A program made the position numbers and the translations under genes. This document shows, one piece after another, positions 1,901 through 15,953 of a stretch of DNA of 57,253 bases. Where the stretch lies: contig JBEIFN010000001.1 in the NCBI GenBank assembly GCA_040382435.1, positions 1-57,253 on the forward strand, in the 5' to 3' direction. Position 1 is the stretch's first letter. Each line of letters opens with the position of its first letter. The notes below the pieces were generated by a model, which was not told the origin of the DNA, ran no database searches, and worked only from the letters and a program-made list of their open reading frames with translations. The stretch is from Alphaproteobacteria bacterium. Lineage in GTDB: Bacteria; Myxococcota_A; UBA796; GCA-2862545.

Positions 1901-3669
1901 TCTTCCGGCGCATGGAGGGTGCGATGGCGCGTGGGTTGGGGCGCGTGACGCCGTTGGCAGTGGTGCTCGCGTGTGGGGGGGCGGAGGGTCTGGACGGCGA
2001 TGTGCCGCCGGCCTGGGCGCCAGAGTTGGCGTGTCCATCGGCCGACAACCCGGACTGCGCGCCGGGTGCTGCGACCACGCTGCGCGCCGGGGCCGCGGTG
2101 CGCAGCGTCGTTCCGGCGTGCTGGGAGGGTTGGACCGACGCCAACGACGACCAGTACTACGACGCTGGGGATGAATCGTTCCTCGACTGCGGGTGTGATC
2201 ACCTCTGTCCGGCCGACGCGGGCTACACCGCGCCCGACGAGGGCGAGGGCGACGGCGTGTTTCAGGCCGTCTGGCTCGCGGGTTTCGGCAACGGTCGTCC
2301 CGCCAACGGCGTACGCGACGCGTCCCTTGGCATGATCGGTGAGGGAGATGGTCTGCTGGCGAGCGTTGTGGTCCTCGATCAAGACGCGACGCGGATCGCG
2401 ATCGCCACGGTGGACGCGGTCGGCATCATGTACGACCAGGTGCTCGAGATCCGTGCCGCGGTCGCGGCCCGCGGCCTCGGCATCGACCACGTCATCGTGC
2501 ACAGCAGCCACACGCACTCGGGCCCTGACACCATGGGCATCTTCGGTCCGAGCATCAGCCGGACGGGGTTTCAGCAACGCTACGCCGATCAGATCGCGGT
2601 CGCCGTCGCGGACGCCGCTGAGGAGGCGGTCGCTGGGCTCGTGGACGTCGAGCTGCGGACGGGCGAGGTCGACCTCAACGAGGTCGGTGGCGACAAGGGC
2701 GTCGGCAACGTGATCCGCGACAGCCGTGATCCGAACATCGTCGACCCGCGCGTCGGCGTCGCGCAGCTCATCCATGACGGGGCGACCGTCGCGACGCTGG
2801 TCCACTGGGCGAACCACCCCGAGACGATCGCGGACGACAACCTGTTGATGACCTCGGACTTCGTGCACGGCGTTCGAAAGGTCGTCAGCGAAGGTTCCCG
2901 TTGGCCCGATGCTTCGGGGCGTCCCGGCGTGGGGGGCGTGACGGTCTACCTCAACGGGACCGTGGGCGGCATGATGACCTCGCTGGGGGCTGAGGTCACC
3001 GACCCGACCGGCGCGACGTGGCGTGAGGCGTCGTGGGAAAAGGTCGACGCCGTGGGGCAGATCATCGGCGAAGCGGCGTTGACCGCGCTCGACGGCGCCA
3101 CCACCGCCGTCGCACCGCGGCTGACCGTGGGCGCGCACGAGATCGACTTGCCGGTCGAGAATACGGGCTATCAAGCCATGTTTCTGATCGGCGTGCTCAG
3201 CCACCGCACGGCCGACGGCTACGACGTCAACCAGCCGCTCGGCGACGACAACCTCCCCTACGCCCCGACCGAGGTCGATCTGGTCGAGCTTGGGCCGATT
3301 CGCCTGCTGACGATGCCGGGCGAGGTCTTGCCCGAGAGCTTTCTCGGTGGCTACGACGGATCGTTCACGCCGCCCGGGCAAGAGATCGTCGATGTGAGCC
3401 AGCCCAACGCGCCCGAACTCTCGCTCGCGCCCTCACCGCCGTACTTGGTCGACCGGCTGGGCGGCCAGCTGCGCTGGTGCGTCAGTCTGGGCAACGACGA
3501 GGTCGGCTACGTGATCCCGCCCTACAACTTCGTGCTCGCCGACGCTGGCGCCTACGTGCTGGAGGCCGAGGGCGATCACTACGAGGAGACCAACAGCCTC
3601 GGTGCCCAGACCCTCCCGCTGCTCGAAGCCGCGGCCGATCGCCTGATCGCTTGGCTCGACGCCCGGTAG
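1897..3669 (+). CDS. Neutral/alkaline ceramidase-like lipoprotein
   Basis: ATG 1897 overlaps the upstream TGA (ATGA). Lipobox VLAC-G. HSSHTHSGPDTMG resembles the conserved THTHSGP block of the neutral ceramidase N-terminal domain. The ORF-track start at 1855 would overlap the upstream gene by 46 nt. Confidence 0.7.
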   Translation: MIFRRMEGAMARGLGRVTPLAVVLACGGAEGLDGDVPPAWAPELACPSADNPDCAPGAATTLRAGAAVRSVVPACWEGWTDANDDQYYDAGDESFLDCGCDHLCPADAGYTAPDEGEGDGVFQAVWLAGFGNGRPANGVRDASLGMIGEGDGLLASVVVLDQDATRIAIATVDAVGIMYDQVLEIRAAVAARGLGIDHVIVHSSHTHSGPDTMGIFGPSISRTGFQQRYADQIAVAVADAAEEAVAGLVDVELRTGEVDLNEVGGDKGVGNVIRDSRDPNIVDPRVGVAQLIHDGATVATLVHWANHPETIADDNLLMTSDFVHGVRKVVSEGSRWPDASGRPGVGGVTVYLNGTVGGMMTSLGAEVTDPTGATWREASWEKVDAVGQIIGEAALTALDGATTAVAPRLTVGAHEIDLPVENTGYQAMFLIGVLSHRTADGYDVNQPLGDDNLPYAPTEVDLVELGPIRLLTMPGEVLPESFLGGYDGSFTPPGQEIVDVSQPNAPELSLAPSPPYLVDRLGGQLRWCVSLGNDEVGYVIPPYNFVLADAGAYVLEAEGDHYEETNSLGAQTLPLLEAAADRLIAWLDAR

Positions 3670-5112: not shown

Positions 5113-5135
5113 CGGGCCGGGCTCACCCCGGTCCG
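5113..5135. terminator. Candidate bidirectional hairpin in the 12-bp convergent gap (SPFH / AbgT)
   Basis: CGGGCCGGG-ctcac-CCCGGTCCG forms a 9-bp stem with one G.U pair. There is no clear U tract, and it overlaps the AbgT stop codon. Confidence 0.3.
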
Positions 5136-6601
5136 AGGTCCATTCCGGCGGCCCATGCGAACAACAGGGCCGCCGTCCAAGTCACCATGCACGCCAAGGC
5201 CATCGGGGCCAGCCAGGCGATGAGGCTGCCGAGCGTGGCGTCGGGGCGGTAGCGGCGGACCGTCACGAGCACGATCGGCAAGTAGGGGTTGAGCGGACCG
5301 ACGGGGTTGATGCACGCGTCACCGATGCGGTACGCCATCTGGACAAAGTCGGGTGGTACCCCGAGCTGCAGCCCGGCAGGGACGAGGACGGGCGCGAACA
5401 GGGCCCACTTCGCGCTCGCGCTCGACAGGACGACGTCGACCGCTGCACCCGCGCCGAGTACCCCGAGCAGCACGCCGGCGCCCCCGAGGCCGATGGCGCG
5501 TGTGGCGTCGGCGACGCCCACCGAGAGCCAGGCGGCGAGCTGCGAGCGTCCAAAAACGGCGAGCGTCTGACCTGCGACCAAGGCGAGCACGAGGTACCCT
5601 GCCACCCCCTCGGCGGCGCGCTGCAGCGTGGCTTGGAGCGAGGCGAGGTCGGGCAGGCGTCCGGCGCGGCGACCGTAGACGAGGGCGGCGGTGAACAGGG
5701 TCGTGGCGACCGCGGGGACGGTCGCGTCGGACCAGGCGGGGACGGTTCGCCCATCGGGCCGAACCAGGGTGCCTTGAAGGGGGCCGCCCGGGAGCCAGAC
5801 CGCGAGCGCCCAAGCGGACAGCACGACGGCGGCGGTCACCAAGGCAGTGGCGGGACTCGGATCGCTGGGGACGCCTTCGCCTCGCTCGTCGGGCGTCTCG
5901 ACCTCGACCGCCGTGTGCAGCGAAGGCAGCATCGCCCGCAGGACGAGGGTTGCGGTCACGATGACGAGGACGGTGGAGGCGGCCGTGAAGCGGAGGTTGG
6001 CGGTCGCGGCGACCTCCAAACCTGGCGCGGTCGTTTGGGCGGCGGCCGTCGTCATGCCCGCGAGCAGCGGGTCGAGCGGGATCAGCAGCGGGTTGGCGGC
6101 GTATCCGAGTCCGATGCCCACGGTCGTCCCGAGCACGCCAGCGAGCGGCGGCCTCCCGGCGCGCTCGAAGGCCCTCGCGACCAGCGGTGGCAGCACGAGG
6201 TATCCGGCGTCGCCGGCGAGCGTAGAGAGCACCCCGAGCCCGATGGCGCCCGGGAGCAAGGCGGGGGCGGGCAGCGCGCCGACCCCGCGGCGCAGGACGG
6301 CGTCGAGCAGCCCGACCTGCTCCGCGACGCCGACGGCGATCGCGAGCACGAGGACGGCGCCCAGCGGTGGAAAGTCCAGCATGTTGCGGGCGATCGAGGT
6401 CAACAGCCACGGCAGCTGGTCGGCGCCGAGCAGATCGACCACCGCGATCGGCGCACCGTCGGGGAGGCGCGCGGTGGCGCCGGTGAGGGCGTGGCTCGCG
6501 ACGAGCACGGCGAGCCAGGTCGCTGCGAACAGCGCGATGGGCTCGGGGAGGCGTCGCGCGATCTGCTCGAAGCGTGCGATCGCGCGTGCGAGCGCGCTCA
6601 C
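5123..6601 (-). CDS. AbgT-family transporter (p-aminobenzoyl-glutamate transporter family)
   Basis: GTG start at 6601 overlaps the GMC stop (GTGA). Polytopic membrane protein with AbgT-type blocks (NMLDFPPLGAVLVLAIAVGVAEQ, INPVGPLNPY). Confidence 0.85.
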   Translation of the reverse strand: MSALARAIARFEQIARRLPEPIALFAATWLAVLVASHALTGATARLPDGAPIAVVDLLGADQLPWLLTSIARNMLDFPPLGAVLVLAIAVGVAEQVGLLDAVLRRGVGALPAPALLPGAIGLGVLSTLAGDAGYLVLPPLVARAFERAGRPPLAGVLGTTVGIGLGYAANPLLIPLDPLLAGMTTAAAQTTAPGLEVAATANLRFTAASTVLVIVTATLVLRAMLPSLHTAVEVETPDERGEGVPSDPSPATALVTAAVVLSAWALAVWLPGGPLQGTLVRPDGRTVPAWSDATVPAVATTLFTAALVYGRRAGRLPDLASLQATLQRAAEGVAGYLVLALVAGQTLAVFGRSQLAAWLSVGVADATRAIGLGGAGVLLGVLGAGAAVDVVLSSASAKWALFAPVLVPAGLQLGVPPDFVQMAYRIGDACINPVGPLNPYLPIVLVTVRRYRPDATLGSLIAWLAPMALACMVTWTAALLFAWAAGMDLGPG

Positions 6602-8142
6602 GCGCGTGCTGCCGCCGCGACGAACGGCACGGCGCGGTGGGCGAGCGCGTAGATCGTCTCGCTCGGGTTGACGCCCAACGCCGTGGGGAGCACCGAACCG
6701 TCGACGACGAACAGGTTGTCGAATCCAAAGACGCGGTGCTCGCTGTCGACGACGCCGTGCTCTGGCGATGCGCCCATCGCACAGCCGCCCATCTGGTGCG
6801 CCGAGAAGATCGCGTGCTCGTGCGCGCCGTAGGGGGCATCTGCGAAGGCGTCGAGCTCGCTCGGGTCGGAGACGACGACGCTGTCGACGTGTAGGCTCGC
6901 CACGGTCTGCGCACCCGCGGCGAGCTGGACCTCGGCGACGACGCGATGCGCGGCGGCGAACGCTTCGCGCAGCGCGGGGCGAATGGGGTAGTCGACCACG
7001 GGGCGACCGTCGTCGCGGAGGCGGACGGTGCCACCGTCATCGCCGGGCAGGAGTCCGTCGACGGACAGGGCGATGATCGCGTTGGCGTACTCCAGCTGCG
7101 AGATCAGCTCGTGCTGGACCCGGCCGAAGGCGTTGAACGCGACCGCGGCGAGCATCGGTTGGAGCGGGGCCGCTTCGAGGAAGAAGCCCATCTTGTCGGG
7201 TCCGCGGTCGATGTGCTGGTGGCTGCCGATCGACTGCGGCGCGCCCGACCAAGGCGCCACTGGGGTCGGCATGCGCCCGAACAACCCGATCACGGGGTGC
7301 AAGAAGGTACGGCGGCCGACGCGTCCGCCAGCCGTGATGCCGGACCGCAGCAGCAGGCCGGGACCGTTGATCGCGCCGGCGCTGCTGACGACGACCTTGG
7401 CGGTCACCGTCACCGAGGGGCCTTCGGCCGTGGGCGCCGTCGAGCGGAAGACGCGGCCGACGACGCCGGTCGCGCGGGCGCCGTCGTGCACGATGCGGTC
7501 CACCGCGACGTTGGCGAGCAGCGTCAGACCGCCGGCGAGCGCGTCCGCGATGTAGGTGATCGCCATCGCCTGCTTGCCGTCGACGGGGCACCCGACCCCG
7601 CACAGGCCGCTGTTTGCGCAGCCTTTGACGTTGCGGCGCAGCGGGCGCACCTCCCACCCCAGCTTTCGCGCGCCGGCGAGAAGGGCGTGGTTGTTCGCGT
7701 TGGCCATGGCCTCGGGCCACTCGGTGATCGACAGTCGCGTCTCGACGGCCTCAAAGTGTGGAGCGAGCTCGGCTTCGGTGAACGGGAGCTGATGAACTTG
7801 GCGCCAGTGCGCGAGGATGCGCTCAGGCGTGCGAAAGCAGGTCGTCCAGTTGACGGTGGTCGAGCCGCCGACGCTGCGTCCTTGCAGGATCGTGATCGCT
7901 TGGTCCGCCGTCGCCCGCGTCCCGCGCTCTTGGTAGAGCTTGGGGAAGGATTCGGCTTCTAAACCATGAAAGTCAGCACGTGTCGCGTAGTCCCCCTCTT
8001 CGAGGAGCACGACGGTCAGGCCCTGGGCGACCAGCCCGGCGGCCAGCACGGCGCCGCCTGCGCCGGAGCCGACGATGACGACGTCGGCGGAGAGCTCGAC
8101 GTCCTCGGTGAGGTCCGTGGCGGTCTTGAGGGTGCCGGTCAT
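6598..8142 (-). CDS. GMC-family FAD oxidoreductase, large subunit, no signal peptide
   Basis: ATG 8142 overlaps the upstream TGA (ATGA 8139-8142). Rossmann motif VVIVGSGAGGAVLA...LLEEG. C-terminal GMC block HQMGGCAMG...FVVDGSVLP. The track start at 8346 adds 68 Arg/Pro-rich residues and is rejected. Confidence 0.9.
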   Translation of the reverse strand: MTGTLKTATDLTEDVELSADVVIVGSGAGGAVLAAGLVAQGLTVVLLEEGDYATRADFHGLEAESFPKLYQERGTRATADQAITILQGRSVGGSTTVNWTTCFRTPERILAHWRQVHQLPFTEAELAPHFEAVETRLSITEWPEAMANANNHALLAGARKLGWEVRPLRRNVKGCANSGLCGVGCPVDGKQAMAITYIADALAGGLTLLANVAVDRIVHDGARATGVVGRVFRSTAPTAEGPSVTVTAKVVVSSAGAINGPGLLLRSGITAGGRVGRRTFLHPVIGLFGRMPTPVAPWSGAPQSIGSHQHIDRGPDKMGFFLEAAPLQPMLAAVAFNAFGRVQHELISQLEYANAIIALSVDGLLPGDDGGTVRLRDDGRPVVDYPIRPALREAFAAAHRVVAEVQLAAGAQTVASLHVDSVVVSDPSELDAFADAPYGAHEHAIFSAHQMGGCAMGASPEHGVVDSEHRVFGFDNLFVVDGSVLPTALGVNPSETIYALAHRAVPFVAAAARA

Positions 8143-10040
8143 GGCAGACTCCCGGGCTGGGCGGGCGCCACTCCGGTCGGGGGGGCTTGGGTCGTCGCCG
8201 CGGCGGGCGTGACGATGGCGGCCACCAGCGGGCCGGCGTAGCCGAGCGCAGGCCACACCTCGGGCCGCGCGTAGTAGGCGCTCGCCGTGAGCGTGCGCAG
8301 GGCCTTGTAGACTTGACGCCGCAGTCCAAGCGGGCTCGTCCGCCATCCGTCCAGCACGCGGTCTTGCGCAACCGCATCCATGTTGGTGAACGCGGTGGGC
8401 GTCCCCGCCACGATCATGTTCGTCAGGGGGTTTTCGAACAGCGCGCAGGCCTGCTCGACCTCGGCGACCATGCCGGGCGGACAGGTCGCGAGCAGGTCGT
8501 CGACGGCCTCGGCGATGCCGAGATCGGTGGCGGTGGGGAAGTCGGGGCGTCCGGCGAGCGACGGCCCACCGGGGTTGACCCGTGCGGCGACCGCGTGCAG
8601 GACCGAGAAGGCGCGGGGACTCAGCGCCTTGAGCGGCCGTGAAGGGGAGGTCACGCGGCCGGGAAGCAGGCCGACGCCGACCCCTCCGAGCGCGAGCATC
8701 GTCGCGCCCAGCGCACCGGTCTTGAGAAAGCTGCGACGGGTGGAGGCCATGGGTTTGGGCGTAACGCGCGGCGGTCGAGGTGCATCCGGCGCGCTGTCAT
8801 CGCGCGTTGTCGGCCACGGGGCGACGAAGGGGACCATCGCGAGGCCGGGCAGCGCCAGAACGCTGCAGAGCGCGAAATACAGGCTCCAGTCGTGGTCGAC
8901 CGCCTCGACCAGCCAACCCGCGCTCGCGGCGAACAGCGTCCGGGGGAGCGCGGCGACGCCGCTGAACAAGGCGTACTGGGTGGCGGCGTAGGCGCGGTCG
9001 GTCCGGCTGGCGACGAACGCGAGAAACGCCGCGTTGCCGAGGCCGACCCCGAGGTACTCGGCCGCCACCGCGATCCCGAGGCCTAGCAGTGAGGGGCCGA
9101 CGGAGGCCAACGCGGAGAACGCGAGGATGCTCCCTGCTTGCACCGCACCGAACACCCACAGGGCGCGGTGGATCCCGATCCGCGTCATCAGCGCGCCGCC
9201 CAGCGTGGCCCCCGCGACCGTCGACCAAAGGCCCACGACCTTGGCCACCGTCCCGATCTCGGTCGGCGTGAAGCCGAGGCCTAGGTAGAACGGCGTGACC
9301 ATGGAGGTCGCGAAGGCGTCGCCGAGCTTGAAGAGCACGAGGAACAGCAGGAAGGCGGCCGCGCCGCTCCAGCCCCGCGCCGCGAGGAAGTGCTGGAACG
9401 GCAGAACGACGGCGTCGCGCAGGCCGGGTGGGGGCGCGACGCGCTCCACCGGCTCGGGGGCGAGCCAGGTCGTCACGAGGCCGAGGGTCATGAAGGCCGC
9501 GGTGACCGAGAACACCGTCGACCAGGGCGCATGGTCCGCGAGCACGAGCGCGAGGCCGCCGGGGACGAGCTGGCTGACGCGGTAGGCGTTGGCGAACCAG
9601 GCGGTGCCGTGGCCGAGCTCGTCATCGGTCAGCAGCTCGCGTCGCCACGCGTCGAGCACGATGTCCTGGCTGGCGGAGGCGAAGCTGACCCCGACCGTGA
9701 GCACGCCAGCGCGTAGCAGATCCGAGGCCCATATGGATGGTTCGAGCAGGGAAAACGCCCCAAGCCCGAGCAGGAGTGCGAGCTGTAGCAGCGCGGCCCA
9801 CGTGCGTCGGCGGTCGAGGTTGGCGGGCAGCGCGCGGTCGAGGACGGGCGCCCAAAGGAACTTCCACGCGTACGGCGTGCCTGCGAGTGCGAACAACCCG
9901 ATCGAGGTGAGGTCGGCGCCCTGCGAGGTCAACCATGCAGGGACGAGCTGCGTCGTGGTGTAGAGCGGTAGGCCCGACGCGAACCCGAGGCCGACGCACG
10001 CCGCGATGCGGGCGGAGAACAGGTCGCGCCATCCGCGCAT
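8139..10040 (-). CDS. ampG: AmpG-type MFS muropeptide permease fused in frame to a Tat-signal 'gluconate 2-dehydrogenase subunit 3'-type small subunit
   Basis: ATG 10040 is preceded by GAGGAG with a 7-nt spacer. Roughly the first 410 aa are collinear with E. coli AmpG (LGFASGLP, AWKFLWAPVLDR, SASQDIVLDAW, LFKLGDAFA, ATQYALFS). A Pro-rich linker follows. Then comes MASTRRSFLKTGALGATMLALGG plus a domain of about 200 aa (internal ATG at 8750), with no intervening stop. Confidence 0.8.
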   Translation of the reverse strand: MRGWRDLFSARIAACVGLGFASGLPLYTTTQLVPAWLTSQGADLTSIGLFALAGTPYAWKFLWAPVLDRALPANLDRRRTWAALLQLALLLGLGAFSLLEPSIWASDLLRAGVLTVGVSFASASQDIVLDAWRRELLTDDELGHGTAWFANAYRVSQLVPGGLALVLADHAPWSTVFSVTAAFMTLGLVTTWLAPEPVERVAPPPGLRDAVVLPFQHFLAARGWSGAAAFLLFLVLFKLGDAFATSMVTPFYLGLGFTPTEIGTVAKVVGLWSTVAGATLGGALMTRIGIHRALWVFGAVQAGSILAFSALASVGPSLLGLGIAVAAEYLGVGLGNAAFLAFVASRTDRAYAATQYALFSGVAALPRTLFAASAGWLVEAVDHDWSLYFALCSVLALPGLAMVPFVAPWPTTRDDSAPDAPRPPRVTPKPMASTRRSFLKTGALGATMLALGGVGVGLLPGRVTSPSRPLKALSPRAFSVLHAVAARVNPGGPSLAGRPDFPTATDLGIAEAVDDLLATCPPGMVAEVEQACALFENPLTNMIVAGTPTAFTNMDAVAQDRVLDGWRTSPLGLRRQVYKALRTLTASAYYARPEVWPALGYAGPLVAAIVTPAAATTQAPPTGVAPAQPGSLP

Positions 10041-10051
10041 GGTTGGGCTCC

Positions 10052-12136
10052 TCAGGGTGCGTCCCACCATACCCTAGGGGCGATGCCGCTGGGGACCCCG
10101 TCGATCGTGACGAGGATTCGGGTCTGACGTTCGGTCGTAGGCGCGCGGAGGCGGCGCTCGTAGTGGTCGCCGACGCTCGTCACACCGCCCATCCACGGCG
10201 CCCCAACGCTGGTCGCGGGGTCCGTCTCGATCGTGACGGTGGCGGCGCGTGGTGCGCCCTGCGCGTCGCGCGGCGTGACCGACACCACGATCTCGGAGAC
10301 GCCGTCCGCGGGTGCGTGCCGGTCCACTTCGGACAGGTGGATCGTCTCCGGCTCGGTGATGTGGTGGGTTTGGCCCGCCTGAAGGGGGCCGACCTCCTGT
10401 CGCACGCCGCTCGGCCAATCGATCGTCAGCTGTGTCGTCTCGTCGTTGGGACCCAGCGCGAAGTACGCGAACTCCGAGGGCACCAAGCCTTCGGAAGCCG
10501 TCGCGCCGAGGAGTTGCCACTGATCGGGGAGGCCGGCCACCTGCAAGCGCAAGCGGGCGCCGAAGCCGTGCGCGTTGCTGGTCGTGCCGTGCAGTCGCAC
10601 AGCGAGGACGCGGCCACCGGTGTCGACGTCGTTGCGCAACACGCGGGGCAGGTCCCCGATGCCACCGACGAGCAGATCCGGGTCGGCGTCGCCGTCGATG
10701 TCGTCGACGCGCAACGTGTGCTGCCAACCCGGTACGCCGAGCGGCAGGCTCGAGGAGACGTCGACGAGGTGGCCGAGCCCGTCGTTCCACAGCGCCAGCG
10801 GCGCGTACGGCCCGTTGCGGACCGGCGCGGTGAAGGCGTCCATGTCGTCACCGAGCGCGACGACGGCGTCGGGTCGGCCATCGCGGTCAAGATCGATCGG
10901 CCCGATCGCCCACGGGAGTTGGAAGACCTGGTTGGGACCGATGGGGAGCGCGTCGGCGAGCGTCGGGGTGAGGTCGGTCCAGGCGCTCGGCCCGGTCGAG
11001 AAGCCGTGTAGGTGGGGGTCAGACAGCGAGACGAGGTACTCGAAGACGCCGTCGCCGTGCAGGTCGAACAGGGCCGCCCCCATCGGCTGGCGCGCGCCGA
11101 GGGGCATAAAGGGCGCGGTGGGGTCGTACCGGAACACGGAACCCATCGGGAAGGGGTCGACGTGACCCCACACGGTGCGTCCGGCAAGCGCGCCCACAGG
11201 CTCAAGGACGGTCGAGGGATGATCGGTGGCCTCGCACCCTGACGCGACCCACAACACCCGGTCCGGTGCGCCGTCGAAGCCCGGGAACGCGCCGAGGGCG
11301 TAGGCGTTGGGGCGCAGGTCTTCGGGGAAGACGCCGTCGATCCAGCTCCACGTCGCGACCCCGGTCCGGAAGAACGCCAACGCGCCGCGTGCGGTGGTGT
11401 TCGAGCACGAGTTGGGGAGGAACCAGACGTCGATCCAGCCGTCGCGATCGAGGTCTGCGACCCCCACGCGCTGGTAGCCGCCGAGGGGCCGCAAGCCGTC
11501 GGGCATCGACGGGAGCTGGCCTTGAAACGTGGCACCGCGCGCGAGCGTGATCGGCGACTCGAAGCTGGCGCGGAGGAGGTCGACCGCGCCATCGTCGTCG
11601 AGGTCGAGCGCGCCGACCACGCCGCGGCGAACGGGGCGAAGGCGGGCGCTCAGGGCCGCGTCGTAGGTCCAGCCTCCTGCGCCATCGGGACGGTACACGG
11701 CGTGCCAGTTCGGCGCGGCGCCCCCCATCAGCACCTCGGAGACGATCAGCTCGACGCTGCCGTCCGCGTCGAGGTCGGCGGGTAGTACGGTGGTTAACTC
11801 GCCGAGCTCGCGATTCGAGATGCTCGACGGGGGCGCGGTCGCGCCGTCGGCCAACAGGGTCCCGAGGAGCACCTCGGAGAAGCCTGCGCCCCAGCTGGGC
11901 GGCGTGGGTCGGGGAGGCTCCTGGGCCGTGTCCCTGGCGGGCGTCTCGGTCGGCGTGTCCGCCAGCGTGTCCGCGGGGGTGTCGGACGGCGTGTCCGGCC
12001 TCGGGGTGTCGATGGGTGTGGGGTCGTCGGGCGATCCGGTGTCGGACGCCTTGAGCGATGCGTCGGGAGCGGGCGCACACGCGAGCATCACGGTGACCAC
12101 GGCGAGCGGCCGCCATGTTCGGGACGACGTCGTCAT
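10052..12136 (-). CDS. CRTAC1-like lipoprotein (FG-GAP/VCBS repeats + ASPIC/UnbV domain + Ig-like C-terminus), paralogue 1
   Basis: ATG 12136 overlaps the upstream TGA (ATGA). Lipobox MLAC-A, then a D/T/P-rich linker. DxDxDG repeats (DLDADGSVE, DLDDDGAVD, DLDRDGWID, DLHGDGVFE, DLDRDGRPD, DIDGDADPD). ASPIC block GTTSNAHGFGARLRL...TIDWPSG. Confidence 0.85.
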   Translation of the reverse strand: MTTSSRTWRPLAVVTVMLACAPAPDASLKASDTGSPDDPTPIDTPRPDTPSDTPADTLADTPTETPARDTAQEPPRPTPPSWGAGFSEVLLGTLLADGATAPPSSISNRELGELTTVLPADLDADGSVELIVSEVLMGGAAPNWHAVYRPDGAGGWTYDAALSARLRPVRRGVVGALDLDDDGAVDLLRASFESPITLARGATFQGQLPSMPDGLRPLGGYQRVGVADLDRDGWIDVWFLPNSCSNTTARGALAFFRTGVATWSWIDGVFPEDLRPNAYALGAFPGFDGAPDRVLWVASGCEATDHPSTVLEPVGALAGRTVWGHVDPFPMGSVFRYDPTAPFMPLGARQPMGAALFDLHGDGVFEYLVSLSDPHLHGFSTGPSAWTDLTPTLADALPIGPNQVFQLPWAIGPIDLDRDGRPDAVVALGDDMDAFTAPVRNGPYAPLALWNDGLGHLVDVSSSLPLGVPGWQHTLRVDDIDGDADPDLLVGGIGDLPRVLRNDVDTGGRVLAVRLHGTTSNAHGFGARLRLQVAGLPDQWQLLGATASEGLVPSEFAYFALGPNDETTQLTIDWPSGVRQEVGPLQAGQTHHITEPETIHLSEVDRHAPADGVSEIVVSVTPRDAQGAPRAATVTIETDPATSVGAPWMGGVTSVGDHYERRLRAPTTERQTRILVTIDGVPSGIAPRVWWDAP

Positions 12137-14352
12137 GGTGCATCCCACCAAACGCGGGGGGCGACGCCGAGAGGGACGCCATCGAGGGTGACGACGATCC
12201 GATCTTGCGCGGCCGTCGTTGGGGCGCGGAGCGTGCGGGTGACGGTCGTGCCGGACGTTGTCGCCGGACCTGTCCAGCTGCCTCCCGAGAGCGTGGCGTC
12301 GAGCTCGATCGTCACGGCGGCCGCTCGGGCGGCTCCCGCGGCGTCGCGCGGCGTGACCGTCACCGTGATCTCGGCGGCGCCGTCTGCGGGCGCGTGCCGG
12401 TCGGGCTCGGAGAGCGTCACGGTCGGCGGCTCGACGATCGTGTGCGTCGCGCCCGCTGGCAGGGGTCCGACGACCTGACGCAGACCGCTCGGCCAGTCGA
12501 TGGTCAAGCGGGTCGCGGCTCCGGCGGTTCCGGTCGAGAAGAACAATCGCTCGGGTGGGGCGTGCCCCTCGGTCCCGGTCGCGCCCAGCAGCTGCCATTG
12601 GTCGGGGAGCCCCTGCACCTCGACGCGCAGCCGCGCGCCCATGCCGAGGTGGTTCGAGGTGGTTCCTTGCAACTTGACGCCGAAGCTGCCGCCGCCGGTG
12701 TTGACGTCGTTGCGCAGCAGGCGGGGCAGGTCGCCGATGCCGCCGACGAGCAGGTCGGGGTCGCCGTCATCGTCGAGGTCGTCGACGGCCAGGGTGTGCA
12801 GCCATCCCGGTAGGCCGAGGTCGAGGCCGGCGGTCGCGTCGGAGAACCCGCCTTGTCCGTGGTTCCACATCACGATCGGCAGGTAGGGGCCGTTGCGGAC
12901 GGGCGCGGCGAACGCCCCAAAGTCGTCGCCCAGTGCCACCACGAGATCGATGCGGCCGTCCCGGTCGAGGTCGATCGGACCGATCGCCCAGGGGAGCTGG
13001 AACGTCTGGTTTCCACCGATCGGGTACGGCGGCGCGAAGCCGGGCGTCAGGTCCTGCCAGAGGCCGGGCAGGATGCGAAAGGCGTGGAACAGCGGGTCGG
13101 CGAGCGTGGTGCCGAACTCCCAGATGCCATCGCCTTCGACATCGAACACCGCCGACCCCATCGGCCGGCGCGCGCCGATCGGCAGGAAGGGGGCGCTCGG
13201 GTCGTAGCGGAACACGGCGTCCATCGGGAAGGGATCGACGTAGGTCCACGTCGGTCGCCCCTGCAGCGTCCCGGTGGGCTGCAGGATCATCGGCGCATGG
13301 TCGGCGGCCTCGCAGCCCGCGCCGGACATCACGAGACGGTCGGGCTCGCCGTCGTGGCCCGGGATCGTCCCCAGCGCGGTCGCGCCGACGCGCGGGGACG
13401 TGTCGAACAGGTCATCGATCCATGTCCACTGGTCGACGGCGGTGCGGACGAAGGGGACGATCACCTCCGTGGTACGTCCACAGACGTTGGGGGCGTACAC
13501 GACATCGATCCAGCCATCGCGGTCGAGGTCGGTGACGGTCACGTGCAGCCAGCCGCCGCGGGGCTGCATCGCGGTCGGGATCCCGCCGTCCTCCTGCACC
13601 CAGCCGGCGCCGCGGCGAAGCTGGATCGGCGCGTCGTAGGCCGCGCGGAGCAGGTCGACCGCGCCGTCCTCGTCGAGATCATAGGCGCCGACGACACCTC
13701 GGCGGACGCTGGTCAAGAGGTCCGACAGGGCGGCATCGACCGTCCAGTCCGCGCTCGTGGCTCCACGCCGCAGGACCGCGTGCCAGTTCGGGCTCGCGGT
13801 CGGGCGGAACACCTCGGAGAGGATCAGCTCGCGGACGCCGTCACCGTCGAGGTCGGCGAGGTGTGCGGTGACGAGTTCGCCCATCTCGCCCCCCGCCACA
13901 TCGGGCAGCTGCACCGTGATGCCCTCGTTGGCCCACAGGTCGAGTCCGATTTCGGAAAACCCAGCACCGAAGGAGGGGGGATCGGGGGGAGACGAGGGGG
14001 TGTCGGCGTCGGGTGTGTCGGATGGAGCCGGTGTGTCGTCGCCCTCGGGGTTGGGGGGCGTGGCGGTGTCGATGGGGTCGGGCGGGTTCGACGGCGTGTC
14101 GGTGGCGGGCGTGTCGGGTTGCTCCGGACCTTGCGGTGTGTCGCCGGTCGGTGTCGGACCGGGATCGACGCCCGGAGCGGGCGTGTCGTCGCCCGTCGTC
14201 GGTCGCGTGTCGTCGGCGGGAGGAGGATCCTCGGTGGTGCCGACGGCGCCCGGTGAGGCGCAGCCGAGCCACAGGAGGCCCCAAACGCTCCGACACGCGA
14301 GAAGGGTTGCGCCTCTCTGCCCGCCGGATCGTGACTGGCCTGCTCTCGCCAT
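12133..14352 (-). CDS. CRTAC1-like lipoprotein (FG-GAP/VCBS + ASPIC/UnbV), paralogue 2
   Basis: ATG 14352 (MARAGQ...WLGC-A lipobox). Same architecture and collinear sequence with paralogue 1, and both end in APRVWWDAP. Confidence 0.85.
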   Translation of the reverse strand: MARAGQSRSGGQRGATLLACRSVWGLLWLGCASPGAVGTTEDPPPADDTRPTTGDDTPAPGVDPGPTPTGDTPQGPEQPDTPATDTPSNPPDPIDTATPPNPEGDDTPAPSDTPDADTPSSPPDPPSFGAGFSEIGLDLWANEGITVQLPDVAGGEMGELVTAHLADLDGDGVRELILSEVFRPTASPNWHAVLRRGATSADWTVDAALSDLLTSVRRGVVGAYDLDEDGAVDLLRAAYDAPIQLRRGAGWVQEDGGIPTAMQPRGGWLHVTVTDLDRDGWIDVVYAPNVCGRTTEVIVPFVRTAVDQWTWIDDLFDTSPRVGATALGTIPGHDGEPDRLVMSGAGCEAADHAPMILQPTGTLQGRPTWTYVDPFPMDAVFRYDPSAPFLPIGARRPMGSAVFDVEGDGIWEFGTTLADPLFHAFRILPGLWQDLTPGFAPPYPIGGNQTFQLPWAIGPIDLDRDGRIDLVVALGDDFGAFAAPVRNGPYLPIVMWNHGQGGFSDATAGLDLGLPGWLHTLAVDDLDDDGDPDLLVGGIGDLPRLLRNDVNTGGGSFGVKLQGTTSNHLGMGARLRVEVQGLPDQWQLLGATGTEGHAPPERLFFSTGTAGAATRLTIDWPSGLRQVVGPLPAGATHTIVEPPTVTLSEPDRHAPADGAAEITVTVTPRDAAGAARAAAVTIELDATLSGGSWTGPATTSGTTVTRTLRAPTTAAQDRIVVTLDGVPLGVAPRVWWDAP

Positions 14353-14485
14353 GTTCGCGCCTCGCCGAGCATTGTACGTCGTGATGCGCCGGTTCGCGCG
14401 TCGCCGGTACGACGCGGTGTGCACGGCGTCTGGCCGGTGGTTGTGTTCGGCTCGCCGGCGCCATAGGCTGCGGGCGTGGTGGGGC

Positions 14486-15946
14486 ATGCTTTTTCATAGC
14501 CACGACTTCATCTTCGGCTTGTTGCCCCTGACCTGGAGCCTGTGGCGGGCGGCCGATCGGCGCAGCCCTCGGGCGGCGCTGTGGGTGTTGGTGCTCGCGA
14601 GCTTGGTGTTCTACGCTTGGTGGTACCCGCCGTATGTGATCTTGTTCCTCGCTTCGATGTTCGGCAATTTTGGCTTGGGGCAGGTTCTTGGGGACGATGC
14701 GCGCGCGGAGCGCGTTCGTGATCGCGCGCTCTGGTGGGGCATCGCGGCCAACCTCGGCCTGTTGTTCGTCTACAAGTACTTGGGTTGGGTGCTCGAGATC
14801 CTCGGGCAGGTCGGCGGGCCGCAGCTGCAGGGCCCCGGGTGGTCGTTGCCGATCGGCATCAGCTTCTTCACCTTCCAGCAGGTCGCCTACCTCGTGGATG
14901 CGCGGCGAGGGCTGTGCAAGGAGCACGATGGCCTGGCCTACGCTTTCTTCGTCTCGTTCTTTCCGCAGCTGATCGCGGGGCCGATCATCCACCACCGCGA
15001 CATCCTGCCGCAGGTCCACGAACGGCGTCGACCGACGGCGGACGATCTCGCGGTCGGCGTGTCGTTGTTCGTCGTCGGCTTGGCCAAGAAGGTGCTGATC
15101 GCCGACGTGATGGCCCCTCAGGTCGATCGCGTTTTTGGTGGGGTGCACGCCGGAGAGGCTCCGACGACCGCGATCGCATGGCTCGGGATGTTCGCTTGGC
15201 ACTTCCAGCTCTACTTCGACTTCTCGGGCTACTCCGACATGTCGCTCGGGCTGGCGCGGATGTTCGCGATGCGGCTGCCGGTCAACTTCGAGGCCCCCTA
15301 TCGCTCGGACTCGTTGACGGAGTTCTGGCGGCGCTGGCACCTGTCGCTGAGCCACTTTCTGCGCGACTACTTGTACGTGCCGCTGGGCGGGAACAAGGGC
15401 GGCGTGTGGATGCAGGCGCGCAACCAGTTCTTGACGTTGTTCGTGGCCGCCGTCTGGCACGGCGCGGGCTGGACGTTCGTGGTCTGGGGCCTGCAGATGG
15501 GCGGGATCGTCTACATCCATACGATCTTGCGCGACCGGGGCTGGACGCTGCCCGACACACCGTTCGGTGTCGGCCTGGGACGCGCGCTGTTGTGGCTGTG
15601 CATGCTCTCGTCGTGGCCGCTGTTCCGGGGGCAGAGCCTGACGGACGCTGGGCTGCTCTACGAGGCGATGCTCGGCGTCGGCCCGGCGGGTCTCGGCGCC
15701 TTCCCGCTGACGTGGTTGCTCGCTTTTCTGGCGCTGACGGTGTGGACGCAGGTGCTGCCGACGACCCAGCAGCTGTTCCGTCACCACGACCCGGCGTGGC
15801 ATTGGCGTGCGGTCGACCGGTTGACCGGACCGGCGTGGCTCGCTTGGCACCCAACGTGGGTGTGGGGGGCGTTCGTGGCAGGTCTTTTCGCGGCCTCGGT
15901 CACGGTCTTGGACCGCGCGGGCGCGTTCCTCTACTGGAACTTCTGA
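14486..15946 (+). CDS. MBOAT-family membrane O-acyltransferase (AlgI/DltB/PatA-like)
   Basis: ATG 14486 (MLFHSHDF...). Polytopic. MBOAT signature FWRRWHLSLSHFLRDYLYVPLGGN contains the conserved His. The track ORF from 13757 is an antisense-shadow extension. Confidence 0.92.
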   Translation: MLFHSHDFIFGLLPLTWSLWRAADRRSPRAALWVLVLASLVFYAWWYPPYVILFLASMFGNFGLGQVLGDDARAERVRDRALWWGIAANLGLLFVYKYLGWVLEILGQVGGPQLQGPGWSLPIGISFFTFQQVAYLVDARRGLCKEHDGLAYAFFVSFFPQLIAGPIIHHRDILPQVHERRRPTADDLAVGVSLFVVGLAKKVLIADVMAPQVDRVFGGVHAGEAPTTAIAWLGMFAWHFQLYFDFSGYSDMSLGLARMFAMRLPVNFEAPYRSDSLTEFWRRWHLSLSHFLRDYLYVPLGGNKGGVWMQARNQFLTLFVAAVWHGAGWTFVVWGLQMGGIVYIHTILRDRGWTLPDTPFGVGLGRALLWLCMLSSWPLFRGQSLTDAGLLYEAMLGVGPAGLGAFPLTWLLAFLALTVWTQVLPTTQQLFRHHDPAWHWRAVDRLTGPAWLAWHPTWVWGAFVAGLFAASVTVLDRAGAFLYWNF

Positions 15947-15953
15947 GGCGCGC

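What the first reader, a model, noticed from the sequence alone, without database searches (positions are those of the whole stretch)
5123..14352. Tightly coupled five-gene operon: two FG-GAP/ASPIC lipoproteins, AmpG::small-subunit, GMC flavoenzyme, AbgT transporter
Seen: five consecutive minus-strand genes with essentially no intergenic DNA.
- ATGA overlap at 12133-12136.
- The stop of FG-GAP paralogue 1 is embedded in the Shine-Dalgarno of ampG (cTGAGGAGcccaaccATG, 10040-10054).
- ATGA overlap at 8139-8142.
- GTGA overlap at 6598-6601.
Established family knowledge:
- AmpG imports GlcNAc-anhydroMurNAc(-peptide).
- Two-subunit Tat-exported GMC enzymes include periplasmic sugar/glycoside dehydrogenases (gluconate 2-dehydrogenase, glycoside 3-dehydrogenase types).
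- AbgT-family proteins move aminobenzoyl-glutamate-like dipeptides.
- CRTAC1-like FG-GAP/ASPIC proteins are extracytoplasmic beta-propellers of unknown bacterial function.
Inference: the set looks like an envelope-located capture, oxidation and uptake module for a glycopeptide or muropeptide-like substrate, possibly prey or self cell wall in a predatory organism. This gene combination does not match any pathway I can name.
Basis: partly seen in the sequence, partly recalled or inferred. Interest (0 to 1): 0.65.

Follow-up and report, generated by a model that had tools for sequence, protein, structure and literature searches.

The report
AmpG permease fused to dehydrogenase subunit
The five tightly packed genes are real, but only one small bacterial lineage has this gene set; the one unusual part is a cell-wall-fragment transporter (AmpG) joined in one protein to the export subunit of a periplasmic flavin dehydrogenase, which may need two membrane-insertion systems to assemble.

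Summary
Observation confirmed. Five minus-strand genes (5123-14352) have the stated ATGA/GTGA overlaps and an 11-nt SD-containing gap, and all domain assignments hold.

Interpretation only partly supported. The block, flanking genes included, occurs only in the window's own clade (two relatives at 75-93% aa identity). In 80 species-level loci with a GMC relative, 69 have the small-subunit (ss) gene just upstream. Only one, the same close relative, has AmpG, AbgT or the FG-GAP/ASPIC genes within 10 kb. The closest standalone AmpG and FG-GAP homologues are likewise unlinked.

The conserved unit is a two-gene ss-GMC dehydrogenase:
- a Tat-signal "hitchhiker" subunit;
- a signal-less FAD enzyme with an invariant C-x5-C-x3-C motif, spaced as in the 3Fe-4S site of BcGDH;
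- a fold closest to the FDH and BcGDH catalytic subunits.

The novel part is that the ss is fused in frame to a 12-TM AmpG core. The fusion is intact in four independent runs and three lineages, is under purifying selection, and has no SD before the ancestral start Met431. Among the best 150 of 1,169 ss homologues, only this clade is fused. It is a candidate dual Sec/Tat-inserted protein. Substrate unknown.

The parts
12133..14352 (-). FG2: CRTAC1-like FG-GAP/ASPIC lipoprotein. Candidate lipobox Cys31 (14260-14262), Pro/Thr/Asp-rich linker, Ca-motif beta-propeller, UnbV_ASPIC domain, C-terminal invasin-D3-like Ig domain.
   Evidence: Translation. Pfam FG-GAP_3 6e-18, UnbV_ASPIC 26.6 bits (cut-off 23.4), Invasin_D3. 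60-61% identical to the FG1 core.
10052..12136 (-). FG1: paralogous CRTAC1-like lipoprotein (lipobox MLAC, Cys20 at 12077-12079). Its stop codon lies inside the SD of the next gene.
   Evidence: AF2 model of residues 121-694: pLDDT 91.2, pTM 0.92. Best PDB fold match is murine CRTAC1 9etn_A, E 1.6e-14. Invariant DxDxDG-type motifs in A3.
8832..10040 (-). AmpG-family MFS permease core: 12 TM, residues 1-403 of the 633-aa fusion.
   Evidence: TIGR00901 at 409 bits, cut-off 350. Aligns to solved AmpG 9c3f/8zgz over residues 10-403 against 15-402, E 2.5e-77. E. coli TM1-12 correspond to residues 1-413 and both termini are cytoplasmic (PMC11568325).
8751..8831 (-). Variable cytoplasmic linker (residues 404-430) joining AmpG to the former start of the small-subunit gene. 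No stop codon and no SD.
   Evidence: Three-way alignment: same length, divergent sequence, in frame. No SD-like motif before Met431, unlike the standalone ss genes. No indels in four runs.
8664..8750 (-). Ancestral start Met431 (8750-8748), twin-arginine motif T-R-R-S-F-L-K (RR at 8733-8738) and a Gly/Ala/Leu-rich h-region (residues 441-459). Predicted 13th, Tat-dependent, N-in/C-out helix, followed by R462, R468, K471 and R476.
   Evidence: TIGR01409 TAT_signal_seq at 16.8 bits, cut-off 16.7, residues 434-462. Standalone homologues start exactly at this Met, and RR is invariant. Criteria for dual Sec/Tat TMDs from PMC5449189.
8139..8663 (-). Periplasmic small-subunit ('hitchhiker', Gluconate_2-dh3-like) domain and a Pro/Ala-rich tail. 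Stop overlaps the GMC start (ATGA).
   Evidence: PF13618 E 2.9e-4, residues 478-596; 21.6 bits, just under the 23.4 cut-off. 1,169 homologues at E<=1e-3; the best 150 other than its own clade are 121-299 aa standalone proteins. Standalone neighbours of GMC carry PF13618.
6598..8142 (-). GMC flavoenzyme catalytic subunit without a signal peptide. FAD fold starts at residue 20. Invariant Cys175/Cys181/Cys185 (7588-7620). Invariant His449 and Asn492.
   Evidence: PF00732 1.4e-51 and PF05199 1.3e-24. A1 invariant columns. AF2 pLDDT 78, pTM 0.85. Foldseek top hits are FDH large subunit 8jej_A/7w2j_A and BcGDH alpha 8grj_B/6a2u_B, TM about 0.7. Family profile's best PDB hits by sequence include the same (FDH first; BcGDH 10th-11th).
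5123..6601 (-). AbgT-family transporter. GTG start overlaps the GMC stop (GTGA).
   Evidence: PF03806 at 326 bits. 4r0c YdaH E 5e-62 and 4r1i MtrF E 5e-59. The GTGA junction is also present in L004.
14353..14485 (.). Only sizeable non-coding gap: divergent intergenic region between FG2 and the MBOAT gene, and the presumed promoter region for the five genes.
   Evidence: sequence. No sigma-70 consensus match. The assignment is an inference.

Best explanation
The locus is a real operon that is specific to one lineage. Its only deeply conserved functional unit is a two-gene periplasmic dehydrogenase:
- a small Tat-signal subunit (ss, Gluconate_2-dh3-like);
- a signal-less GMC flavoenzyme that folds with FAD (and probably a 3Fe-4S cluster) in the cytoplasm and is carried across the membrane by the ss ('hitchhiking').

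In this clade an ampG-family gene sits directly upstream and has lost its stop codon. The 12-TM permease now continues through a roughly 27-residue cytoplasmic linker into the old ss start codon, its twin-arginine motif and its signal helix.

I infer the following assembly route. The 12 AmpG helices are inserted by Sec/YidC. The 13th helix, together with the folded ss:GMC complex, is then inserted and exported by Tat, as in other dual Sec/Tat proteins. This leaves the dehydrogenase tethered at the periplasmic mouth of the permease.

The two CRTAC1-like Ca-binding propeller lipoproteins and the AbgT transporter are co-packed, clade-specific additions. Their link to the enzyme is unproven. The substrate is unknown.

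Shown: gene structure, the fusion, its uniqueness and conservation, and family and fold assignments. Inferred: the Tat/Sec route, the Fe-S cluster, tethering, and any coupling of oxidation to transport.
For: Fusion is real:
- One ORF with no stop.
- Identical or near-identical contigs without indels in four runs from three studies.
- 37 nt differences but only 7 aa differences against the X4/P0001 variant.
- In frame in L001 and L004 despite a divergent linker.

Ancestral state was a separate ss:
- 149 of the best 150 ss homologues are 121-299 aa, and those aligned begin at the residue matching Met431.
- The ss gene directly precedes GMC, with a 4-nt overlap in the four relatives' loci read in detail. 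In 69 of 80 loci an ss-like ORF lies just upstream.

Translated as a fusion: SD motifs precede the standalone ss genes (L006 GGAGAG, L008 GGAGG) but are absent before Met431 in all three fused genes.

Topology fits:
- The AmpG part aligns to E. coli AmpG TM1-12, whose termini are cytoplasmic.
- TRRSFLK passes TIGR01409.
- Positive charges follow the helix, as in known dual Sec/Tat proteins.

Hitchhiker enzyme type:
- GMC has no signal peptide.
- The fold and profile are closest to the FDH and BcGDH catalytic subunits.
- Invariant C175/C181/C185 have the +6/+4 spacing of BcGDH Cys212/218/222, which bind 3Fe-4S. C181 and C185 align with the Cys pair of the FDH motif in the profile alignment.

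Lineage-specific block.
Against: - No experiment or transcript data exist.
- Met431 is conserved, so separate internal initiation of the ss cannot be excluded.
- Signal-peptidase cleavage after the Tat helix would also undo the tether, although no AxA site is evident.
- My crude hydrophobicity estimate does not separate the Tat helix from the AmpG helices.
- The ss domain scores just below Pfam's cut-off (21.6 against 23.4 bits).
- The Fe-S cluster rests on motif spacing only, and the model has low confidence just after the motif (residues 183-195, pLDDT <50; about 53 over 171-180).
- No cytochrome c partner is encoded in the operon, so the electron acceptor is unknown.
- The fusion could be a tolerated neutral accident with no functional coupling.
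Confidence: 0.55

Rival explanations
1. All five products form one envelope pathway: the FG-GAP/ASPIC lipoproteins capture a glycopeptide or muropeptide-like polymer, the tethered GMC oxidises its sugar, and AmpG and AbgT import the sugar and peptide parts.
For: - Operon packing with coupled junctions is kept in three lineages.
- The physical AmpG-ss fusion is a Rosetta-stone-type hint.
- There is a precedent for an AmpG homologue whose periplasmic domain recruits the enzyme that makes its substrate: A. baumannii AmpG1 and Slt (PMC13507758).
- The nearest solved GMC relatives are sugar dehydrogenases.
Against: - None of the partnerships recurs outside the clade. AmpG, AbgT and FG-GAP are near GMC in 1 of 80 loci, the same close relative, in 0 of 4 FG loci and in 0 of 2 closest AmpG loci.
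- The one deeper-conserved neighbour of the FG gene is the divergent MBOAT pair, not the downstream genes.
- The nearest solved relatives of AbgT are described as efflux pumps.
- There is no glycan-binding or hydrolase evidence for the propellers.
Confidence: 0.18
2. The fusion is only apparent at the protein level. The ss is made separately from internal Met431, or is released by signal-peptidase cleavage. The cell then has an ordinary AmpG and an ordinary ss:GMC dehydrogenase that merely share an mRNA.
For: - Met431 is conserved in all three fused genes and aligns with the start of every standalone ss.
- The linker is poorly conserved and has lower GC3, 0.74.
Against: - No SD-like motif precedes Met431 in any of the three genes, whereas standalone ss genes have one.
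- No stop codon or frameshift has arisen in the linker in any lineage or run.
- No AxA-type cleavage site follows the helix.
Confidence: 0.17
3. The GMC pair oxidises a lipid-type alcohol (fatty alcohol, sterol or similar), not a sugar. It has nothing to do with what AmpG or AbgT carry, and the operon is a mosaic.
For: - In 15 of 80 loci an aldehyde dehydrogenase lies directly upstream of ss-GMC. An acyl-CoA ligase is nearby in 9 loci and a TetR regulator in 8.
- The best NCBIfam hit, far below cut-off, is cholesterol oxidase.
- The window flanks hold MBOAT, SDR and ceramidase-like genes.
Against: - That association is mostly in the distant 42-46% identity branch (Burkholderiales, Alcanivorax, Chromobacterium; two loci are 55-58%), and is absent from the other Myxococcota-type loci nearer to the window.
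- The closest solved folds are sugar dehydrogenases.
Confidence: 0.15

Closest known systems
Membrane-bound FAD-dependent dehydrogenase complexes with a Tat 'hitchhiker' small subunit: Burkholderia cepacia FAD-glucose dehydrogenase gamma-alpha(-beta), Gluconobacter fructose dehydrogenase, gluconate 2-dehydrogenase
   Same: - A small subunit with a twin-arginine signal is encoded just before a signal-less GMC catalytic subunit.
- The three-Cys motif has identical spacing to the 3Fe-4S ligands.
- There is a His/Asn pair.
- These are the closest solved folds.
   Different: - Only 20-22% identity.
- No multihaem cytochrome c subunit gene.
- The ss is not free but fused behind a 12-TM permease.
- Substrate unknown.
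Dual Sec/Tat-integrated polytopic membrane proteins: actinobacterial Rieske Sco2149, Sco3746 haem-Moco protein, polyferredoxins, YkuE-type phosphoesterases (Tooke et al. 2017, PMC5449189)
   Same: - Sec-type helices are followed by a cytoplasmic loop with a consensus RR motif.
- A last Gly/Ala-rich helix follows, and then positive charges.
- The extracytoplasmic domain must be exported folded.
   Different: - The known families have 2-4 Sec helices; this one has 12.
- The exported domain has no cofactor of its own but would drag a separate FAD enzyme with it.
- MFS and GMC proteins are not mentioned in that paper (0 occurrences).
- Untested experimentally.
AmpG anhydromuropeptide permease (E. 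coli, 9c3f/8zgz) and A. baumannii AmpG1 with a periplasmic domain that binds Slt (PMC13507758)
   Same: - Full-length similarity of the 12-TM core, and the TIGR00901 cut-off is passed.
- The idea of a permease that holds a periplasmic enzyme at its mouth.
   Different: - Lacks the C-terminal TM13/14 of E. coli AmpG.
- The equivalog models are not reached.
- The appended domain is a Tat-type dehydrogenase subunit at the C-terminus, not an internal periplasmic domain.
- Muropeptide transport is untested.
CRTAC1 / ASPIC-UnbV FG-GAP beta-propeller proteins
   Same: - FG-GAP_3 and UnbV_ASPIC domains.
- Best fold match is murine CRTAC1 (9etn).
- Invariant Ca-binding-type DxDxDG motifs.
   Different: - 14% identity.
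- Bacterial lipoprotein with a long Pro/Thr/Asp linker and an extra invasin-D3-like Ig domain.
- A small, mostly Myxococcota family.
- No known bacterial function.
AbgT family (E. coli AbgT importer; YdaH and MtrF efflux pumps)
   Same: Full-length Pfam match, and E 5e-62 to YdaH.
   Different: Scores are far below the NCBIfam subfamily and equivalog cut-offs (261 against 753; 216 against 864). Transport direction and substrate are unknown.

Membership tests
AmpG family MFS permease (TIGR00901) | Score above the curated subfamily cut-off, with full-length alignment to solved AmpG | tested here: met
   409 bits against a cut-off of 350. Residues 10-403 align to 9c3f residues 15-402, E 2.5e-77.
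AmpG family MFS permease (TIGR00901) | Equivalog-level identity to the enterobacterial or pseudomonad AmpG (NF008238, NF008867) | tested here: not met
   311 bits against 756, and 321 bits against 656.
AmpG family MFS permease (TIGR00901) | Two extra C-terminal helices TM13/14 forming the hydrophobic vestibule, as in E. coli AmpG | tested here: not met
   The alignment ends at E. coli residue 402, within TM1-12 (PMC11568325). A single Tat-type helix follows instead.
AmpG family MFS permease (TIGR00901) | Transport of GlcNAc-1,6-anhydroMurNAc(-peptides) | not testable with these tools
   Needs an uptake assay or complementation of an ampG mutant.
GMC oxidoreductase | GMC_oxred_N and GMC_oxred_C domains, N-terminal GxGxxG FAD fold, C-terminal catalytic His plus Asn/His | tested here: met
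   PF00732 at 175.8 bits and PF05199 at 87.7 bits. GSGAGG at residues 25-30. H449 and N492 are invariant in A1. GMC fold confirmed.
Hitchhiker-type FAD dehydrogenase complex (BcGDH / FDH / gluconate 2-DH type) | Small subunit with a twin-arginine signal encoded next to a signal-less catalytic subunit | tested here: met
   TRRSFLK. PF13618-like domain. GMC starts directly with the FAD fold.
Hitchhiker-type FAD dehydrogenase complex (BcGDH / FDH / gluconate 2-DH type) | Cys-rich loop binding a 3Fe-4S cluster | tested here: inconclusive
   Invariant C175/C181/C185 have the same +6/+4 spacing as BcGDH Cys212/218/222. C181 and C185 align with the Cys pair of the FDH motif in the profile alignment. 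Model confidence is low just after the motif (residues 183-195, pLDDT <50). The cluster itself needs EPR or a structure.
Hitchhiker-type FAD dehydrogenase complex (BcGDH / FDH / gluconate 2-DH type) | Multihaem cytochrome c electron-transfer subunit in the same operon | tested here: not met
   None among the five genes. Nor is one a conserved neighbour in the 80 loci.
Dual Sec/Tat-integrated polytopic membrane proteins | Consensus RR motif on the cytoplasmic side, immediately before the last helix, after an even number of Sec-type helices | tested here: met
   12-TM AmpG core with a cytoplasmic C-terminus, by homology. RR at residues 435-436, helix at 441-459.
Dual Sec/Tat-integrated polytopic membrane proteins | Low hydrophobicity of the last helix, plus positive charges after it | tested here: inconclusive
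   R462, R468, K471 and R476 are present. The helix is Gly/Ala-rich, but my crude scale gives +2.3, within the range of the AmpG helices.
Dual Sec/Tat-integrated polytopic membrane proteins | Experimentally Tat-dependent insertion of the last helix | not testable with these tools
   Needs reporter fusions in tat-plus and tat-minus hosts, and RR-to-KK mutants.
AbgT family transporter | Full-length PF03806 match | tested here: met
   326 bits, profile positions 5-497 of 502. 4r0c E 5e-62.
AbgT family transporter | NCBIfam subfamily or equivalog cut-off (TIGR00819, NF008459) | tested here: not met
   261 bits against 753.6, and 216 bits against 864.
CRTAC1-like FG-GAP/ASPIC protein | FG-GAP repeats plus UnbV_ASPIC domain, and a CRTAC1-like fold | tested here: met
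   FG-GAP_3 at 64.6 and 65.6 bits. UnbV_ASPIC at 26.6 bits in FG2 (passes) and 23.1 bits in FG1 (cut-off 23.4, borderline). 9etn_A E 1.6e-14, TM 0.61-0.63.
Bacterial lipoprotein | Signal peptide ending in a lipobox Cys | tested here: inconclusive
   FG1 has V-M-L-A-C20, which fits well. FG2 has L-W-L-G-C31, which is atypical at position -3. The N-terminal Cys is nearly invariant in 41 family members. No dedicated predictor was available.

The most novel reading that the evidence does not exclude
AmpG::ss would be the first transporter-tethered Tat 'hitchhiker' enzyme. A 12-TM MFS permease inserted by Sec would have a 13th helix, a fused small subunit and a non-covalently bound FAD/Fe-S GMC partner that are all delivered by Tat. 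This would be a new and much larger class of dual Sec/Tat substrate. It would also place a periplasmic dehydrogenase at the mouth of a muropeptide-type permease, so that oxidation and uptake of one substrate are physically coupled.
Probability: 0.22. Interest if true: 0.7.

Novelty: new variant of a known kind. Interest (0 to 1): 0.45.

Why it matters
If the fusion is made and assembled as one protein, it extends the known range of Sec-Tat cooperation in two ways. Known cases have 2-4 Sec helices before a cofactor domain; this one has a full 12-TM transporter. It would also have to pull a second, separately encoded flavoenzyme through Tat. That is a stringent natural test case for how Sec hands a nascent chain over to Tat.

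It would also be a rare case of a periplasmic redox enzyme wired to a permease. This makes the otherwise uncharacterised and very widespread ss-GMC dehydrogenase family experimentally approachable: that family has 5,521 GMC hits at E<=1e-10 and 1,169 ss hits.

If the fusion is a neutral accident, the locus is an ordinary mosaic operon. The lesson is then that tight gene packing in one clade is not evidence of a pathway.

Tried and rejected
- RNA evidence for co-transcription: no RNA run holds the stretch.
- Promoter/terminator scan: 0 promoter-like sites, and 1 weak terminator-like site inside ampG, fewer than the shuffles give. Uninformative.
- Metagenome scans for more fused or intermediate relatives:
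  - Alignment A4 was too diverse.
  - A5 matched 600 stretches, but none was confirmed.
  - The single-protein query returned only 5 distant ss relatives at 31-51% identity.
- Sequence search of the PDB with the ss domain and with the FG core: no hits.
- Hydrophobicity (Hessa-type values recalled from memory) to show that the Tat helix is weaker than the AmpG helices: not discriminating, so not used as evidence.
- P0012, a 789-aa AmpG-family protein, was considered as a second fusion of the same kind. Rejected: no ss similarity and no Pfam domain in its extension.
- A sequencing or assembly frameshift as the cause of the fusion. Rejected: four runs show no indels, and three lineages stay in frame.
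- A three-subunit FDH/BcGDH-type complex. Rejected for lack of a cytochrome c gene.
- Taxonomy of the window (the 'predatory' premise) could not be settled with the tools left.

Full report
**1. Observation**

The region 5123-14352 holds five consecutive minus-strand ORFs:

| Gene | Coordinates | Length |
|---|---|---|
| FG2 | 12133-14352 | 739 aa |
| FG1 | 10052-12136 | 694 aa |
| AmpG::ss | 8139-10040 | 633 aa |
| GMC | 6598-8142 | 514 aa |
| AbgT | 5123-6601 | 492 aa, GTG start |

I read the junctions base by base:
- ATGA at 12136-12133.
- TGA at 10054-10052 embedded in tGAGGAG, then 7 nt, then ATG at 10040-10038.
- ATGA at 8142-8139.
- GTGA at 6601-6598.

All five frames show GC3 of 0.87-0.89, against 0.50-0.56 at position 2.

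The block is bounded by a divergent MBOAT gene (starts about 14486, 133-nt gap) and a convergent Band_7 gene (ends 5110, 12-nt gap).

The only correction is that the SD/ATG string runs 10055-10038.

Tight spacing is normal for same-strand neighbours in this genome type (gene calls of L001). It is operon-typical rather than remarkable. Transcription itself could not be checked.

**2.

The fusion protein has only two full-length relatives among 3,656 AmpG-family hits: P0001 (99% id) and P0002 (86% id).

P0002's contig (L001, MAG GCA_046051915.1) and a second relative (L004) carry the same five genes with the same junction types. They also carry the same flanking genes on both sides (MBOAT and a 418-436-aa ORF; Band_7, NfeD and a ceramidase-like gene). 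This is one clade sharing one ancestral arrangement.

The GMC enzyme belongs to a large and well-conserved family, with 5,521 hits at E<=1e-10. Its nearest non-clade members are 57-66% identical and come from Myxococcota, alphaproteobacterial and other MAGs.

In four such contigs the neighbour is always a 181-208-aa Gluconate_2-dh3 gene overlapping the GMC start by 4 nt, and never AmpG, AbgT or FG-GAP.

I then fetched 80 species-representative loci with 10-kb flanks and searched them with all six protein parts:

| Part | Loci with a hit, of 80 |
|---|---|
| GMC | 80 |
| ss, immediately upstream | about 70 (69 by ORF clustering) |
| AmpG | 1 |
| AbgT | 1 |
| FG core | 1 |

That one locus is the MAG already seen as L001.

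From the other side:
- Four loci of FG-GAP/ASPIC homologues (30-42% id) have none of the partners.
- The two closest standalone AmpG genes with long contigs (55-56% id) have none either.

The five-gene combination is therefore lineage-specific. Only ss-GMC is a conserved module.

**3. The ss-GMC module**

GMC features:
- It starts directly with the FAD-binding fold (GSGAGG at residues 25-30) and has no signal peptide.
- Its family alignment has invariant Cys175, Cys181, Cys185, His449 and Asn492.
- The Cys spacing (+6, +4) equals that of Cys212/218/222. Those residues bind the 3Fe-4S cluster in the Burkholderia cepacia FAD-glucose dehydrogenase alpha subunit, whose gamma subunit is the Tat 'hitchhiker' (PMC6719666).
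- A family profile finds fructose dehydrogenase (best) and BcGDH (10th-11th) among its top PDB sequence matches. It aligns C181 and C185 with the Cys pair of the FDH motif.
- The AF2 model (pLDDT 78, pTM 0.85) matches FDH (8jej_A, 7w2j_A) and BcGDH alpha (8grj_B, 6a2u_B) best, with TM about 0.7 at 20-22% identity.

No cytochrome c subunit is encoded nearby, so this is a two-subunit variant with an unknown electron acceptor.

The substrate is unknown. In 15 of the 80 loci, mostly the distant 42-46% branch, an aldehyde dehydrogenase precedes ss-GMC. Acyl-CoA ligase and TetR genes lie nearby. This hints at alcohol oxidation there, but not in the loci nearest to the window.

**4. The fusion**

The AmpG part:
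- It passes TIGR00901 (409 bits against a cut-off of 350).
- It aligns over residues 10-403 with residues 15-402 of solved AmpG. That is the 12-TM MFS core. E. coli's extra TM13/14 are absent.
- Both termini of AmpG are cytoplasmic (PMC11568325).

After a variable linker comes Met431, then T-R-R-S-F-L-K, a Gly/Ala/Leu-rich helix (441-459) and R462/R468/K471/R476. The Gluconate_2-dh3-like domain follows.

Evidence that the ancestral state was a separate ss gene:
- Searching 1.84 billion representatives with the ss part gave 1,169 hits at E<=1e-3.
- Of the best 150, only the window's own cluster is long (625 aa, match at 431-624).
- All the others are 121-299 aa. The closest of them, in alignment A2, begin at the residue aligned with Met431 and have an invariant RR.
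- The fusion therefore arose by loss of the ampG stop codon in front of a pre-existing ss gene.

Evidence that the fusion is not an artefact:
- Contigs from four runs in three studies cover it without any indel.
- One variant differs by 37 nt but only 7 aa. This indicates purifying selection on both halves.
- L001 and L004 keep the frame through a linker whose sequence has diverged.

Evidence that it is translated as one protein: standalone ss genes have a clear SD (GGAGAG, GGAGG), while none of the three fused genes has one before Met431.

The topology is self-consistent. A cytoplasmic C-terminus of TM12 is followed by an RR motif and an N-in/C-out helix, which would place the ss domain and its GMC passenger in the periplasm.

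This is the architecture of the dual Sec/Tat proteins described by Tooke et al.: Rieske, Sco3746, polyferredoxin and YkuE types, with a low-hydrophobicity last helix followed by positive charges (PMC5449189). That paper mentions no MFS or GMC case.

**5. The other genes**

FG1 and FG2:
- The FG cores are 60-61% identical.
- The FG1 core model is confident (pLDDT 91). Its best PDB match is murine CRTAC1 (9etn_A, E 1.6e-14, TM 0.61-0.63).
- Invariant DxDxDG-type motifs suggest Ca binding.
- The family is small and mostly from Myxococcota MAGs.
- Its only deeper-conserved neighbour that I found is the divergent MBOAT plus 418-aa pair, present beside the 42% homologue in L091 at 53% and 51% identity.

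AbgT:
- It is a full-length family member.
- Its closest solved relatives, YdaH and MtrF, are described as efflux pumps (PMC4621753). Import is not a given.

**6. Verdict**

- The best-supported account is a lineage-specific operon built around a conserved Tat-exported ss:GMC dehydrogenase. Its small subunit has become the C-terminal extension of an AmpG-family permease, giving a new variant and a candidate new dual Sec/Tat substrate.
- An AmpG homologue that holds a periplasmic enzyme (A. baumannii AmpG1-Slt; PMC13507758) makes functional coupling conceivable, but nothing here demonstrates it.
- Interest is moderate. The operon as a 'pathway' is weak. The fusion is unusual and directly testable.

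Noticed in passing
window 14486-17210 (+); L091 1182-3841: The divergent MBOAT gene (DltB/AlgI-like, PF03062) and the following 418-aa ORF with no Pfam hit also lie beside the 42%-identical FG-GAP/ASPIC homologue in L091, at 53% and 51% aa identity. AmpG, GMC and AbgT do not. The propeller lipoproteins may belong functionally with this acyltransferase pair.
   Followed up: partly
L012, L020, L062, L065, L070, L072, L074, L076, L080, L082-L085, L087, L090: In 15 of 80 GMC loci an aldehyde dehydrogenase (PF00171) sits directly upstream of ss-GMC. An acyl-CoA ligase is nearby in 9 loci and a TetR regulator in 8. The layout suggests alcohol to aldehyde to acid to acyl-CoA for this mainly distant (42-46% id) branch of the family.
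   Followed up: partly
window 8832-10040: The AmpG part and its ~400-450-aa closest homologues align only with TM1-12 of E. coli AmpG. The C-terminal TM13/14 'vestibule' helices of the solved structure are missing.
   Followed up: partly
L003 6102-8471: A different AmpG-family protein (P0012, 789 aa) has a ~400-aa C-terminal extension with no Pfam hit. It sits beside large sulfotransferase/glycosyltransferase genes. This is another, unrelated AmpG fusion.
   Followed up: partly
L004 about 9890-10001: The Pro/Ala-rich tail of the ss domain is expanded into a (PA)n repeat in L004, while the tails in the window and L001 are short. It is a variable low-complexity C-terminus just before the GMC start.
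   Followed up: no
window 8465-8485 (ss residues about 519-525): The window-clade ss has a 6-residue insertion, within GPSLAGRPD after the conserved PGG, that the aligned standalone homologues lack.
   Followed up: no
L006 6279-7410; L008 6213-7328: In two loci with 63-65% GMC identity, ss-GMC is preceded by a DUF1232 gene and a conserved 285-aa ORF with no Pfam hit. It is followed by a ~930-aa unknown gene, TatD and an ECF sigma factor.
   Followed up: no
window 512-3669 (+): Downstream of the convergent Band_7/NfeD pair lie two genes conserved in L001 and L004. One is a 462-aa ORF with weak cytochrome c and copper type II monooxygenase (DBH-like) hits. The other is a 604-aa ORF with a weak neutral-ceramidase hit.
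   Followed up: no
window 13757-15955 and elsewhere: Very long 'shadow' ORFs (e.g. 13757-15946 +, 13841-15955 -, 5319-7040 -) overlap the real genes. They are a by-product of 71% GC, not genes.
   Followed up: yes
whole window: Near-identical DNA is found in metagenomes from mine tailings, freshwater, groundwater, lake, estuary and soil samples. The organism or its close kin is environmentally widespread. No tRNA genes occur in 57 kb.
   Followed up: no
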